This document shows, one piece after another, positions 51,824 to 55,935 of a stretch of 55,935 nt of DNA. Numbering within the stretch: position 1 is the first letter of the stretch; each line of letters begins with the position of its first letter. The translations under genes were made by a program, and so were the position numbers. The stretch spans positions 1 through 55,935 of the forward strand of contig CAZKWX010000005.1 of the NCBI GenBank assembly GCA_964556685.1, written 5' to 3'. The stretch is from an uncultured Bdellovibrionales bacterium. GTDB taxonomy: Bacteria; Patescibacteriota; Minisyncoccia; Moranbacterales; DUUL01. The notes under the pieces were generated by a model. The model searched no databases. It saw only the letters and a program-made list of their open reading frames with translations, and had not been told where the DNA came from.

Positions 51824-52241
51824 CTTGGCACTGGCCTACTCTCCCCATCGGCGCTGAAAGAGGCTCTTTATCCGCCTCTGGCGGAAACGACTGAGTTCGC
51901 CTCAGCACCATTTCCGTCCATAATCTTTGGCATCGACCTACTCTCACCCGCCCAAATTTTTCGATTTTCTTTTCGTCATTTCTAGTTAAATTTCATTAAC
52001 TGCTTTTTCACGAAAATTTTTATTCCTGTTTTTTAATCGAAAAACTTGGGCGGGCTACCATCGGCGCTGACAGGCTTAACGACTGAGTTCGGGATGGAAT
52101 CAGGTGTGACCCTGTCGCTAAAGACACCAAAGACAATAAAAAGAAATAAAAGGTGCGGGGCAAGGGAAGCCTGTCCGCCCACCTGCCTTCGGCAGGTGTT
52201 GGTGGAGGATCAGGTGTGGCCCTATCGCTAAAAGCACCAAG
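51824..52241 (-). pseudogene. degenerate 5S rRNA split in two halves (51824-51899 and ~52207-52241)
   Basis: CCTACTCTCC, CCATCGGCGCTG, AACGACTGAGTTCG on one side and ATCAGGTGTG..TCGCTAAA..CACCAAG on the other. Confidence 0.65.
51925..52132 (-). rRNA. rrf: 5S rRNA with ~90-nt expansion in helix IV
   Basis: Sense CUUUGGUGUC..CACACCUGAUUCCAUCCCGAACUCAG..GCGCCGAUGGUAG[expansion]GAGAGUAGGUCGAUGCCAAAG. Confidence 0.88.
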
Positions 52242-52756: not shown

Positions 52757-53623
52757 CATATTACTCCATTATTACTAATGGTATAGACTATATCCTCACC
52801 CCGCTCTTTCACAGAAAGGGCGGGGGCTGGCGTATGATAGAAGTTTAAACTCTGAATATCAGATACCTTCTATCTTATCCCGTCTTATTGGGATTCAGTC
52901 GTTACGGGGTCAAGTTAATCTTGTATTCCATCGAAGGAACAATAAATGGCTTGATCAAAAAACAAAACTTTTTTGCTTCCTTTTGAGGAATGTAAATGTT
53001 CCAATTTTTTGTCTTCCGATGTAATTTTGCAACAATCTTAAAATTATTTTCCAAACACTTTATCAATTTCTGTTGATCTTGATAACTGAAGGAATCAGTT
53101 CCAATTCTCAAGGCATTACAATCATTCCTTTTGTATCCATCATCCATGAACCAAATAGCTAAACTTATTGGTTTAATTAGAATGTTTTCGATCTCCTTTG
53201 GAATTACTTTTTTTCTGTCCTTATAAAACTGAAAATAAAAGTGATTTAAGCATTCCAAAGAAAAAGTCGATAAATGGACCCTTTCATAGAATTTTCCATT
53301 CTTTGAGTGTTTAGCAGAAACAATTCTTGGTTTTTGGGGAGAAATATTTTTGAACTCTTCATAGAGCCATCTGAGGTATTCGGTTTGAGCTAGCCCATGT
53401 TCCACTCTCAAACGAACATTTTTCCCATTTTTTTCTAGACATCCGTCGCCTAGAATCAAACCAATTAAAATTGCTTCCTGTCTTTTTGATAGTTGCATTC
53501 TGAAAAGATTAACCGACTTCCCACGGTATTGCCCTGTAATCTTGGGTTCATTTTACAGGGTTCCACCGTTATTAGCCAGTGTACTGATTCCACCTTGCGG
53601 TGGAATTCGACCCTAAAAATTTG
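52757..53623 (-). mobile_element. group I intron with homing endonuclease (after ~U2511)
   Basis: Exons GGCU|CAUC; P1 with U.G, P7 ACGACUG/UAGUCU, terminal G. Confidence 0.88.
52902..53498 (-). CDS. LAGLIDADG homing endonuclease (two-motif type)
   Basis: LIGLILGDG and LAIWFMDDG motifs; inside the intron. Confidence 0.9.
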   Translation of the reverse strand: MQLSKRQEAILIGLILGDGCLEKNGKNVRLRVEHGLAQTEYLRWLYEEFKNISPQKPRIVSAKHSKNGKFYERVHLSTFSLECLNHFYFQFYKDRKKVIPKEIENILIKPISLAIWFMDDGYKRNDCNALRIGTDSFSYQDQQKLIKCLENNFKIVAKLHRKTKNWNIYIPQKEAKKFCFLIKPFIVPSMEYKINLTP

Positions 53624-53874: not shown

Positions 53875-54215
53875 CACTTTGTTACTGCTTATTTATTTTT
53901 AAAATAAGCGGTGTGGTCATTTCTGCCACACTCTCTGTGTCGCCACAGAGTTCAGACTATATCTTCACCCGCCAAAATTTCGAAGAAACTTAGGCGGGGC
54001 TTGGCGTCTAGTCGTTGAGGGCCACATTAAAATGTTCCCTGCTGATTGTCCGCACCAATCACTTTTTTACCATATAACATTATATGGTAGTGTTGGATAC
54101 TCGGAGTTTCCAGCATATAAGCCAAGTTTTTTTATTTTTTTTCGCATTGCGACGATCTTCATTGCCATGTTGCCATGACAACTCCCCACAAAAATCACGG
54201 AGGTGATTTTTCTTA
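53875..54215 (-). mobile_element. group I intron without ORF (after ~U2262)
   Basis: Exons GCCU|CCCAAAA; P4 UGCUGG/UCAGCA, P7 ACGACUA/UAGUCU, terminal G. Confidence 0.85.
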
Positions 54216-54575
54216 AGGCGACCGCCCCAGTCAAACTACCCACCAGGCACTGTTCCCGTCCGCGAAAAATTTTTCAAATTAATTTGAAAAATTTTCAGCG
54301 GACAGGGTTAGCATTTAAAAGCATATAGGGTGGTATTCCACTGATGACTCCATTCCAGCCGGAACTGGAACTTCAAAGTCTCCCACCTATGCTCGGCAAT
54401 ATAATCTCAAACGCAATGCCAAGTTGTAGTAAAGCTCCACGGGGTCTTTTCGTCTTGCCGTAGGTAGAGGGCATCTTTACCCCCATTGCAATTTCACCGG
54501 GTCCCTTGTTGAGACAGTTGCCAAGTCGTTACGCCTTTAATGCGGGTCGGTATTTAGCCGACAAGGAATTTCGCT

Positions 54576-54927
54576 AATCGTCTTGCTCGATATATTTTTC
54601 TTTATATCTCACCCACTCTCCGAGTGGCTGCATGTCGCCATGCAGATGGAACTCTATCTTCTCCAATTCATTTGGAGTCTGACGTTTGGTTTCTGAGGAT
54701 TTCCCGTTTGAGCGGGATCTTTCCTGCTGATTGTCCGCACCAATCACTTTTTTACCATATAACATTATATGGTAGTGTTGGATACTCGGAGTTTCCAGCA
54801 TATAGTCAGATTTTTAGGACATTCCGATTTCTCGGAACAAGCAGTTACTTTTCCTTTTATAACTTTAAAACTCGACTTTTCTACAATTGTTCTAGTCCTT
54901 GAAACTGCCTAAAATAAGACAATCTCA
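54576..54927 (-). mobile_element. atypical group I-like intron (after ~U1931)
   Basis: Exons AAGGU|AGCGAAA; P3 UCUGAC/GUCAGA, P4, J8/7 GAAGAUA; non-canonical P7 and terminal U. Confidence 0.8.
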
Positions 54928-55935
54928 ACCTTAGAACAATTATAGTTATTGCTGACGTTCACTGGCGCTTCGGAGCGCGGCTTGCACCTTGCTCGTTAAC
55001 GTTCCAGCACTGGTCAGGCGTCAGCCCCTATACATCCCCTTACGGGTTAGCAGAGACCTGTGTTTTTGATAAACAGTCGCCAGGCATCTTTTGTTGCAGC
55101 CGACGCTCCGCGTCGGTTCGCTGATTCATGCTGATTTCACGCTGATCAATGCTGATAGAAATTCCATCCGCATTAATCTGCGTTTCATCTGCGTTTATCC
55201 GCGTCCCGGTGCGAAGCATCGGCAGACCATATCCCTAAGTTACGGTCGCTGTTTTGCCGAGTTCCTTAACAAGGGTTCTCCCGTTCACCTTGGGCTACTC
55301 GCCCTGTCTACCTGTGTCGGTTTGCGGTACGGATACTGTAAAACAATCTTAGAAGTTTTTCCTGGCACTCTGCTCATCCTTGTTCCCCCGACTCAACGTC
55401 GGGGTTCCAGGAATACCTTGAGCTGATGCTGGCGGATTTACCAATCCAGCACCCTCAGCATTCCCACCAGAATCCAATAACTGGCAAGGACTACTAGAAT
55501 GCGTCACTCCATCGATATATGTTTTACAGTAGGGCAGGAATATTAACCTGCTGTCCATCGACTACCCCCCAGCGCTCGATTCTCGAGCTTAATTTCTAAT
55601 TTACAATTTATAATTTCTAAACAATCTCTAACTTTCTAATTCCTAATTTATAATTGAAGAATTTAGTTATTGAAAATTGATTAAAAATTTAAAATTGCAA
55701 ATTGCAAATTGAAGCTTGCTCGAAGAGCAAGCGCCAGGGACTCGCCTTAGGACCGCCTAACCCTGGGATGACTATCATCGCCCAGGAAACCTTAGACTTT
55801 CGGTGTACGTGAGTCTCACACGTATTGTGGTTACTTATGCCAACATTCTCACTTCCTGCCGCTCCATTCCACCTCACGGTGTAAACTTCACTGCTGACAG
55901 GAACGCTTCTCTACCAACGCTCGCATCTCGCTTCG

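What the first reader, a model, noticed from the sequence alone, without database searches (positions are those of the whole stretch)
54576..54945. Group I-like intron with a re-coded guanosine-binding site, terminal U and no U.G splice-site wobble
Seen: P3, P4, P6, P8 and J8/7 are intact, but P7 reads GAAACCA (54687-54693) / GAGUUC (54649-54654), versus ACGACUA/UAGUCU in the neighbouring intron. The universal G264-C311 pair is thus compensatorily changed to A-U, with two distal mismatches. The intron ends ...GACGAUU|AGCG (U in either register, not omega-G), U1931 pairs with A, and 54881-54894 forms a 14-bp duplex with the H69 exon. Knowledge: G264-C311 binds exogenous G and omega-G, an A-U swap changes nucleoside specificity, and an unspliced 352-nt insert here should be incompatible with ribosome function. 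Inference: a natural variant ribozyme using another cofactor or terminal nucleotide (for example a U.A-U triple), or one removed by a different mechanism.
Basis: partly seen in the sequence, partly recalled or inferred. Interest (0 to 1): 0.85.

Follow-up and report, generated by a model that had tools for sequence, protein, structure and literature searches.

The report
Group I intron without guanosine site
This insert in the 23S rRNA gene of a tiny marine bacterium is a well-folded group I intron belonging to a large natural class in which the supposedly universal guanosine-binding base pair and the intron's last base have changed together, which suggests a self-splicing RNA that no longer works with guanosine.

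Summary
The core observation holds. The 352-nt insert (window 54576-54927, minus strand, after E. coli U1931) scores as a group I intron. Its P7 "G-binding" pair is A-U, not G-C, and it ends in U, not G. An independent marine metagenome gives the identical sequence, so this is not an assembly error.

It is not a one-off. Across fetched loci I found 63 distinct L1931 introns with A-U, and all 63 end in U. Another 20 have U-A, of which 18 end in C and 2 in U. Of 32 with G-C, 30 end in G. The fold covaries (87% paired versus 74% shuffled). 28 of 44 full-length A-U introns carry long ORFs; the four tested are LAGLIDADG endonucleases. The genome holds one 23S gene.

A conserved guide sequence (GCUGCCU; ACUGCUU here) pairs with both exon ends and gives a U1931.G wobble. 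The two "distal mismatches" and the 14-bp H69 duplex also occur in G-C relatives.

Best reading (about 0.6): a self-splicing group I variant whose nucleotide pocket now reads a terminal pyrimidine. Splicing and the first-step nucleophile are untested; RNA data gave no verdict.

The parts
54576..54927 (-). The intron: 352 nt, inserted after 23S U1931 (E. coli numbering)
   Evidence: The LSU model shows a ~352-nt insertion. Intron-less relatives read CUAAGGUAGCG. RF00028 scores 62.3 bits.
54928..54945 (-). End of the 5' exon: helix 69 3' half plus AAGGU. 54932-54945 pairs with the 14-nt intron segment; 54928-54931 pairs with the guide sequence (P1).
54900..54927 (-). Hairpin at the intron's 5' end, inside the P1 loop: UGAGAUUGUCU / AGGCAGUUUCA
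   Evidence: Helix 3: 86.5% of cells paired; 9 of 11 pairs changed on both sides.
54881..54894 (-). 14-nt segment UAGAACAAUUGUAG that pairs with exon helix 69 (positions 1914-1927)
   Evidence: Helix 1: 96.8% of cells paired. The window's exon AAUUG is matched by intron CAAUU; relatives have AAUCG matched by CGAUU.
54839..54844 (-). Internal guide sequence CUGCUU. GCUU (54842-54839) pairs with exon AGGU and gives G54842.U1931 (P1). CU (54844-54843) can pair with 3' exon AG (P10).
   Evidence: The consensus GCUGCCU is the complement of the ligated junction AGGU|AGC. It is exact in 42 of 70 family members. P1 is 100% paired and U.G in 17 of 18.
54822..54837 (-). P2 hairpin UUCCGA GAAA UCGGAA
   Evidence: Read from the sequence. 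Poorly aligned by MAFFT (47% paired), so tentative.
54805..54810 (-). P3 5' strand UCUGAC; partner is 54678-54683
   Evidence: 93.5% paired; 5 of 6 pairs changed on both sides.
54717..54804 (-). P4-P5 block, 98% identical over 88 nt to the neighbouring intron (54032-54119)
54687..54693 (-). P7 5' strand GAAACCA. A54691 sits where G264 of the guanosine site normally sits.
   Evidence: Rfam alignment; alignment A2.
54678..54683 (-). P3 3' strand GUCAGA
54661..54677 (-). P8 hairpin
54655..54660 (-). J8/7 AAGAUA, the conserved core joiner
   Evidence: It was part of my metagenome search pattern, so its invariance among those hits is by construction.
54649..54654 (-). P7 3' strand GAGUUC. U54650 sits where C311 normally sits.
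54628..54645 (-). P9 hairpin CUGCAU GGCGAC AUGCAG
   Evidence: 100% paired where present.
54577..54627 (-). 3' tail with two further hairpins (CCACUC..GAGUGG; GAUAUA..UAUAUC), ending ...GACGAU
   Evidence: Read from the sequence. The same tail architecture groups the window with 17 other A-U introns.
54576..54576 (-). Last intron base (omega position): U instead of G
54564..54575 (-). Start of the 3' exon, AGCGAAAUUCCU

Best explanation
The insert is a structurally intact group I-type ribozyme intron at 23S position L1931. It belongs to a widespread lineage in very small (about 1 Mb) genomes; one same-family record is titled Patescibacteria group bacterium.

Proposed mechanism, by step:
- The 5' exon is held by a 14-bp helix with helix 69 (shown by covariation).
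- A short canonical P1 follows (AGGU with GCUU, giving a U1931.G wobble), and the same guide sequence aligns the 3' exon through P10 (shown by conservation).
- The base pair in P7 that normally binds guanosine has changed from G-C to A-U, and the intron's last base has changed from G to U (shown).
- I infer that the A-U pair now docks the terminal U, for example as a U.A-U major-groove triple, for exon ligation.
- By the one-site logic of group I splicing, I further infer that the attacking nucleoside of the first step is no longer guanosine: uridine by symmetry, or adenosine by the precedent of the engineered Tetrahymena mutant.
For: (1) Anatomy. RF00028 scores 62.3 bits. P3, P4, P5, P6, P7, P8 and P9 are all present.

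(2) Sequence is real. An independent DNA run is identical over 54429-55079.

(3) Three-way covariation among 117 distinct L1931 introns parsed from all fetched loci:
- A-U with terminal U: 63 of 63 (43 clusters at 80% identity).
- U-A: terminal C in 18, terminal U in 2.
- G-C: terminal G in 30, terminal A in 2.

(4) Few changes separate the types. G-C relatives with the same P7 flanks (L155-157, GACCA/GAGUCC) and the same tail (..UUAACA..G|) differ from A-U introns mainly at 264, 311 and the last base.

(5) The fold is selected. On 18 ORF-less introns (7 A-U, 8 U-A, 3 G-C):
- 87.2% of cells are paired, against 74.1% in shuffles (0 of 500 shuffles reach the observed value) and 37-45% for slid controls.
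- The 264-311 pair is paired in 18 of 18 (UA 8, AU 7, GC 3).
- J3/4-P4 (AUAUGCUGG) and P4' (CAGCAGG-AAG) are invariant or nearly invariant (90% or more), and these were not part of any search pattern.

(6) The splice junction is fixed by RNA pairing. The guide sequence GCUGCCU complements AGGU|AGC, so the last intron base is the base just before A1932.

(7) The elements look active. 28 of 44 full-length A-U introns carry ORFs of 163-235 aa. The 4 A-U ORFs tested, 1 U-A ORF and 1 G-C ORF all match Pfam LAGLIDADG_1.

(8) Only one 23S gene is detected in the 91%-complete genome.

(9) Known chemistry. Guanosine is read by N2-N7, N1-O6 and O6-N4 hydrogen bonds to the G-C pair (passages of PMC2588497).
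Against: - No RNA evidence of splicing. The RNA runs laid held no contig of this organism across the intron or the ligated junction.
- For A-U introns the terminal U is ambiguous with exon U1931. In the register shifted by one base, its conservation would be trivial. Only the P1/P10 pairing and the unambiguous U-A/C class argue for the stated register.
- The classes are related by descent, so the number of independent co-changes is small. The core tree rests on 86 columns and is poorly resolved.
- The pairing rule is not strict. Two U-A introns end in U, and two G-C introns of the other L1931 family end in A.
- In the engineered Tetrahymena A-U mutant the matching nucleoside was adenosine or 2-aminopurine, not uridine. 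This is recalled; only the 1991 paper's title was seen.
- My search patterns required CCUCAGA and AAGAUA, so sampling is biased towards introns with an intact core.
Confidence: 0.6

Rival explanations
1. The intron self-splices, but the last base is not read by the P7 pair. The 3' splice site would be chosen by P10 and the tail alone. The first step would use hydrolysis, or a guanosine bound elsewhere, for example at the invariant G262-C312 pair next door.
For: - G262-C312 is G-C in 18 of 18 aligned introns.
- Two G-C introns end in A (L313, L346) and two U-A introns end in U, so the last base is not strictly dictated by the pair.
- A Coxiella 23S intron 'lacks the canonical omegaG' (title seen in the reference list).
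Against: - It does not explain why 63 of 63 A-U introns end in U and 18 of 20 U-A introns end in C, while the bases just before are variable.
- It does not explain why the 264-311 pair stays Watson-Crick through a double transversion.
Confidence: 0.17
2. The insert no longer self-splices. It would either be kept in the mature 23S rRNA as a folded expansion, or be removed by host nucleases (for example RNase III acting on the 14-bp helix), leaving a fragmented rRNA. On this view the guanosine site and the terminal G were lost because they were no longer needed, or because half-reactions were harmful.
For: - An unspliced L1931 intron is reported for Simkania (title only).
- rRNA intervening sequences cut by RNase III are known, and some CPR 23S insertions are thought to be of that kind (passage of PMC11270868).
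- An RNA-library contig of a relative spans the 5' exon-intron junction. It could equally be a precursor or carried-over DNA.
Against: - Under neglect the last base and the pair should drift; instead both are fixed and paired.
- The guide sequence complementary to both exon ends is conserved.
- Core joiners that were not in my search patterns are invariant.
- Homing endonuclease ORFs are intact in 28 of 44 A-U introns. This implies continuing invasion of single-copy rRNA genes.
Confidence: 0.18
3. The feature is a sequencing or assembly error, or a decaying intron in a dead rRNA gene copy.
For: None found. The window's intron has no endonuclease ORF (352 nt).
Against: - An independent study's contigs match with 0 differences.
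- The same P7 and last base occur in 62 other distinct sequences.
- Only one 23S gene is detected in the genome.
- The gene matches the LSU model at 893.8 bits.
Confidence: 0.02

Closest known systems
Canonical group I introns at 23S L1931 (Simkania, Thermotoga, Synechococcus, organelles), described as IC1-like without P2, with a LAGLIDADG ORF running from P6 into the core (PMC1995217, passages read)
   Same: Same insertion site. Same core sequence motifs (CCUCAGAGACUA / AAGAUAUAGUC). The LAGLIDADG_1 ORF in P6 ends inside J6/7-P7. The guide sequence is complementary to CUAAGGU.
   Different: This lineage has about 90 nt added in the P1 loop (a hairpin and a 14-nt helix-69-binding segment) and a P2 hairpin. 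The window's class also has A-U instead of G-C in P7 and U instead of G as the last base.
Engineered Tetrahymena ribozyme G264A:C311U (Michel et al. [quoted passage not shown] Content recalled; the title and hydrogen-bond scheme were seen in PMC2588497.
   Same: The same base pair is changed to A-U. The idea is the same: one pocket serves both steps, so its pair and the last intron base must match.
   Different: That was a laboratory mutant that preferred 2-aminopurine or adenosine and needed a terminal A. Here the change is natural, widespread, and goes with a terminal U (or with C for U-A).
Coxiella burnetii 23S intron that 'lacks the canonical omegaG' (Raghavan et al. 2007; only the title was seen; paper not held)
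   Same: A natural bacterial 23S group I intron whose last base is not G.
   Different: From recall, it ends in A, keeps a normal G-C site and splices less well. It is a single case, not a class with a matching change in P7. L313 and L346 found here (G-C, terminal A) resemble it more.
Survey of rRNA insertions in CPR bacteria (Tsurumaki et al. 2024, PMC11270868; passages read)
   Same: Reports many group I introns with LAGLIDADG_1 genes at 23S position 1931 in these bacteria.
   Different: The word 'guanosine' does not occur in its main text. The P7 pair and the last base are not discussed in the passages I saw.

Membership tests
Group I intron (Rfam RF00028) | Covariance-model score above the curated threshold | tested here: met
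   62.3 bits against a gathering score of 50, full model 1-253.
Group I intron | Core helices P3-P9, including the P3/P7 pseudoknot, supported by covariation | tested here: met
   P3 93.5%, P4 100%, P5 95.8%, P6 100%, P7 100%, P9 100% of cells paired. 0 of 500 shuffles reach the observed scores.
Group I intron | P1: the 5' exon ends in U, paired with G of an internal guide sequence | tested here: met
   G54842.U54928. The pair is U.G in 17 of 18 aligned introns and P1 is 100% paired. An exon variant AAAGU goes with guide GCUU (L215).
Group I intron | P10: the guide sequence also pairs with the start of the 3' exon | tested here: met
   The consensus GCU, placed 5' of the wobble G, pairs with AGC. 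It is exact in 42 of 70 family members. The window has 2 of the 3 pairs (ACU).
Group I intron | G-C pair in P7 that binds guanosine (G264-C311 in Tetrahymena) | tested here: not met
   A54691-U54650. The same holds in 62 other distinct introns.
Group I intron | The last intron base is G (omega G) | tested here: not met
   The last base is U54576 in either register. No G is conserved within the last 12 nt of the class.
Group I intron | Self-splicing started by an exogenous guanosine | not testable with these tools
   RNA contigs gave no verdict. This needs an in vitro assay.
rRNA intervening sequence removed by RNase III without ligation | A simple extended stem at the insertion point, no ribozyme core, and a site known for such elements | tested here: not met
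   A full group I core is present. The site is a classical group I homing site with LAGLIDADG genes in relatives.

The most novel reading that the evidence does not exclude
Nature has re-programmed the group I nucleotide pocket. In this reading, introns with A-U in P7 use a uridine, and those with U-A use a cytidine, both as the last intron base and as the attacking nucleoside. They would be the first natural group I ribozymes that do not depend on guanosine. rRNA maturation in these nucleotide-scavenging bacteria would then be coupled to pyrimidine pools rather than to GTP.
Probability: 0.4. Interest if true: 0.95.

Novelty: new variant of a known kind. Interest (0 to 1): 0.86.

Why it matters
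The G-C pair in P7 and the terminal G are treated as universal features of group I introns, and they underlie the guanosine-dependent mechanism. A large natural class in which both have changed together, with the rest of the ribozyme and its homing endonuclease kept, would show that the cofactor pocket can evolve in nature. It would give a natural test of the one-site model for both splicing steps. It would also supply ribozymes with different nucleotide specificities that could be used side by side in engineering.

The claim is directly testable with a 400-nt transcript and the four nucleotides. It also matters for annotation: tools that look for a terminal G will misplace the ends of these introns in rRNA genes of this bacterial group.

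Tried and rejected
- Genome-contig scan with a 15-mer from the exon-intron junction. It gave almost only chance hits; 3 were real, and all 3 were already known from the family search.
- Phylum scan with a 15-nt degenerate motif. 8 of 10 hits were protein-coding DNA. In the class scan, ten non-G hits were likewise coding DNA: G985, G799, G837, G809 and G953, G962, G790, G748, G939, G1005.
- RNA evidence. The RNA runs held only small shares. No contig of the window's own organism crossed the intron or the ligated junction. One RNA contig of a relative (10 differences, 2 gaps) spans the 5' junction. One joint, 54576 to 55007, has a 23-nt side and most likely comes from an intron-less organism. 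No verdict on splicing.
- An alternative P1 between GUCUUA (54915-54920) and exon UAAGGU. Rejected because that segment is not conserved in relatives.
- A P7 register restoring G-C, or splicing at a nearby G. No register works (three A's). No G is conserved near the 3' end of the class.
- A closing helix AGGAC (54895-54899) / GUCCU (54816-54820) and the P2 hairpin. They look plausible by eye and show some covariation (AAGAC/GUCU in L007 and L008). They were only 49% and 47% paired on the MAFFT alignment. Left open.
- A fourth state, C-G with terminal A (L311, G769). It is a single case from the other L1931 family, and its register is ambiguous by 2 nt (terminal G is possible). Not counted.
- Ten apparent G-C introns that did not end in G. 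Eight were artefacts of my parser: six were upstream-site introns followed by exon ...AAGGU or ...AAAGU, and two were twin introns. Two are real (L313, L346).
- Trees. The endonuclease tree and the core tree (86 columns; trait columns masked) place A-U introns in at least 2-3 places and U-A introns in at least 2. Both trees are poorly resolved, and endonuclease genes can move between introns. I do not claim a number of origins.
- Literature. Five full-text searches found no report of natural group I introns with a changed guanosine pair. Raghavan 2007, Hicks 2011, Everett 1999 and Nesbo 2003 are not held. Supplementary tables of PMC11270868 were closed and may list these introns.
Full report
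WHAT IS THERE

The right end of the window carries one 23S rRNA gene on the minus strand. It matches Rfam LSU_rRNA_bacteria at 893.8 bits and runs off the window end.
- Rfam finds two group I introns in it above threshold: 53933-54202 (79.5 bits) and 54628-54878 (62.3 bits; gathering score 50).
- A third group I hit in the genome lies next to the 16S gene on another contig.
- The LSU model places an insertion of about 352 nt between ...CUAAGGU and AGCGAAAUUCC.
- 14 genomes of the same family read CUAAGGUAGCG without an insert.
- The intron is therefore 54927..54576 on the minus strand (352 nt), after E. coli U1931.
- Because it starts and ends with U, the borders can slide by one base.

Aligned to the Rfam consensus (aAGACUA ... 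UAGUCu), the P7 strands read GAAACCA (54693-54687) and GAGUUC (54654-54649).
- The pair equivalent to Tetrahymena G264-C311 is A54691-U54650.
- The flanking pairs G262-C312, A265-U310 and C266-G309 are kept. C267.A308 and A268.G307 are mismatches.
- With three consecutive A's, any choice of the bulged base still gives A-U.
- The intron ends ...GACGAUU|AGCG.
- The 14-nt segment 54894-54881 pairs with exon 54945-54932 (helix 69).
- Contigs from a marine metagenome of another study (X3) cover 54429-54752 and 54723-55079 with no differences. The bases are real.

IT IS A CLASS, NOT A ONE-OFF

Genome searches:
- In the same family, 4 of 26 genomes have an intron at this site. All four have the normal CAGAGACUA/UAGUCC and end in G.
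- At order level (319 genomes) more turned up. All were normal except L163, with CAGAUACCA/UGGUAC (U-A) and a terminal C.
- A second such intron (L172) lies in another family. It differs from L163 by compensatory changes in P5, P6 and P8.

Metagenome scan:
- I scanned for J6/7-P7 with any base but G at position 264, followed by J8/7.
- After requiring the 3' exon and removing duplicates, 79 distinct introns remained.
- 60 had A-U and all 60 ended in U. 19 had U-A, of which 17 ended in C and 2 in U.

All fetched loci parsed together, 117 distinct L1931 introns:
- A-U with terminal U: 63. These form 43 clusters at 80% identity, all ending in U.
- U-A with terminal C: 18.
- U-A with terminal U: 2.
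- G-C with terminal G: 30.
- G-C with terminal A: 2.
- C-G with terminal A: 1, with an ambiguous register.
- One parser artefact (L298).

Class-level sample of 401 species genomes:
- The motif hit 57 genomes, against 5 control hits.
- After inspection, A-U introns lie in 4 genomes of 4 families (G000, G885, G868, G758).
- A U-A intron lies in 1 genome (G215), and the C-G case in 1 (G769).

TWO FAMILIES AT L1931, AND THE SPLICE-SITE HELIX

The introns fall into two architectures.
- Family B resembles the published L1931 introns. It has a short P1 loop and the guide sequence GCCUUAG.
- Family W, to which the window belongs, has a long P1 loop. The loop holds a hairpin that starts at intron base +1, then AGGAC, then the 14-nt helix-69-binding segment. 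After the loop come a conserved GCUGCCU, a P2 hairpin and GUCC.
- GCUGCCU is the complement of the ligated junction AGGU|AGC. GCCU pairs with the exon end and gives a U1931.G wobble (P1). GCU pairs with the first three bases of the 3' exon (P10).
- The motif is exact in 42 of 70 family W introns, and variants occur in most others.
- In the window it reads ACUGCUU: G54842.U54928, C54841-G54929, U54840.G54930, U54839-A54931, then U54843-A54575 and C54844-G54574.

This guide sequence also fixes the register: the last intron base is the one just before A1932.

THE FOLD IS UNDER SELECTION

I aligned 18 ORF-less family W introns (7 A-U, 8 U-A, 3 G-C). I then counted pairs for a structure derived from the window.
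- 87.2% of cells are paired, against 74.1% in shuffles; 0 of 500 shuffles reach the observed value. Slid controls give 37-45%.
- 44 pairs show changes on both sides.
- Per helix, percentage of cells paired: 14-bp exon helix 96.8; P1 100 (U.G in 17 of 18); P3 93.5 (5 of 6 pairs changed on both sides); P4 100; P5 95.8; P6 100; P7 100; P9 100.
- The 264-311 pair is paired in all 18 (UA 8, AU 7, GC 3).
- J3/4-P4 and P4'-J are invariant or nearly invariant (90% or more), although they were not in any search pattern.
- Two helices near P2 aligned badly, and I leave them open.

THE ELEMENTS LOOK ACTIVE

- 28 of 44 full-length A-U introns carry ORFs of 163-235 aa in P6.
- Four A-U ORFs, one U-A ORF and one G-C ORF all match Pfam LAGLIDADG_1 at 72-80 bits.
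- The ORF ends inside J6/7-P7. In one reading frame the changes G264A and U267C are synonymous (..ESSETK..).
- The endonucleases of A-U introns fall into at least two lineages.
- The genome (91% complete) shows a single 23S gene.

An element that keeps invading single-copy rRNA genes must be removed, or at least tolerated.

HOW THE STATES RELATE

- G-C introns L155-157 share the window class's P7 flanks (GACCA/GAGUCC) and its tail (..UUAACA....G|). They differ from A-U introns mainly at 264, 311 and the last base.
- G-C introns L317 and L321 (GACCA/UGGUCC) are the counterpart of the U-A class.
- In the short-tail clade, L272 (A-U, terminal U) and L247 (U-A, terminal U) sit at the base of the U-A/C introns.
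- In another lineage, L213 (U-A, terminal U) is nearest to L201 (U-A, terminal C).
- This fits a path from A-U/U to U-A/U to U-A/C taken twice. The tree rests on 86 columns, so I offer this as a hint only.

MECHANISM

Shown:
- the fold;
- the guide pairing with both exons;
- the changed pair and the changed last base;
- their joint conservation.

Known: guanosine is read through N2-N7, N1-O6 and O6-N4 hydrogen bonds to the G-C pair, and one site serves both steps (PMC2588497, passages).

Inferred:
- The A-U pair docks the terminal U, which can donate N3-H to N7 and accept N6-H of A264 (a Hoogsteen-type triple).
- In U-A introns a C can pair in the same way with the Hoogsteen edge of A311.
- The first-step nucleoside should then differ from guanosine.
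- I cannot tell which nucleoside it is. Symmetry suggests U; the engineered Tetrahymena A-U mutant (recalled) preferred adenosine or 2-aminopurine.

RIVALS

- Splicing without read-out of the last base: 0.17.
- Loss of self-splicing, with retention or nuclease removal: 0.18. The Simkania title shows that an unspliced L1931 intron can be tolerated.
- Error or decay: 0.02.

The fixed last base, the maintained Watson-Crick pair through a double transversion, the conserved guide sequence and the intact endonuclease genes weigh against the second rival. They do not exclude it.

COMPARISON AND NOVELTY

- By homology this is a group I intron of the L1931 homing family. It fails two defining features of the guanosine mechanism, so I file it as a new variant of a known kind.
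- Five full-text searches found no report of natural variants of the guanosine pair.
- The survey of these bacteria's rRNA insertions does not use the word 'guanosine' in its main text.
- The only natural non-G terminal base I know of in print is the Coxiella case (title only).

LIMITS

- There is no RNA evidence.
- Sampling is biased by my patterns.
- The register is ambiguous by one base for A-U introns.
- The sequences are related by descent.
- The trees are poorly resolved.
- Key older papers are not held.

Noticed in passing
window 54717-54804 and 54032-54119 (minus strand): The two group I introns of this 23S gene share an 88-nt block (P4-P5 with its extension) at 98% identity, while the rest of the introns is far more diverged. 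This looks like recent gene conversion between introns at different sites.
   Followed up: partly
window 52765-53570 (minus strand): A third insertion of about 800 nt in the 23S gene, after ...GAUGUCGGCUCA. It holds a 198-aa ORF (52902-53498, minus strand) that starts MQLSKRQEAILIGLILGDG, which looks like a LAGLIDADG endonuclease. Group I score is only 25.3 bits (E 4e-4), below Rfam's threshold.
   Followed up: partly
L313 (G666) and L346 (G860), whole intron: Two L1931 introns of the canonical short-P1 family keep the G-C pair but end in A, by the register that their P1 and P10 set. Both carry ORFs of 162-171 aa. This resembles the published Coxiella case.
   Followed up: partly
L311 (G769:C16), whole intron: An L1931 intron with C-G at the guanosine-pair position (CAGACACUA / GAGUGC). 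It ends ..GUCAUA before AGCG. The register is ambiguous by 2 nt, so the last base may be A or G. It could be a fourth state of the pocket.
   Followed up: partly
window 52099-52130 and 52209-52240: A 32-nt direct repeat (88% identity) copies part of the 5S rRNA. The 5S hit itself (52045-52131, minus strand) is short: 87 nt for a 120-position model, with 36 model positions replaced by 2 nt.
   Followed up: partly
L003:1501-1878 (G000:C10): A third group I intron (52.8 bits) lies about 110 nt downstream of the end of the 16S rRNA match. The 16S match covers all 1533 model positions in only 1260 nt. I did not work out what gene the intron interrupts.
   Followed up: no
window 55106-55200 and 55560-55720 (minus strand): Two further insertions in the 23S gene (100 nt and 169 nt in the Rfam alignment) with no ribozyme hit. 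One is built of repeated GCUGAU-like units; the other is very A+U-rich.
   Followed up: no
L160 (G065) and L161 (G112): Twin arrangement: a group I intron inside helix 69 (after AACUAUAA) is followed, about 20 nt of exon later, by a second intron at L1931.
   Followed up: no
L253 (metagenome contig), around the CCUCAGAAACUA motif: A very A+U-rich group I-like core with A at position 264 but C at 311 (an A.C mismatch). It is not at L1931. It may be a decaying or otherwise different intron.
   Followed up: no
L042, L119, L121 (genome contigs records): Records holding introns identical to those of two same-family genomes are titled 'uncultured Bdellovibrionales bacterium'. A third is titled 'Patescibacteria group bacterium'. 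The submitters' labels disagree for one family.
   Followed up: no
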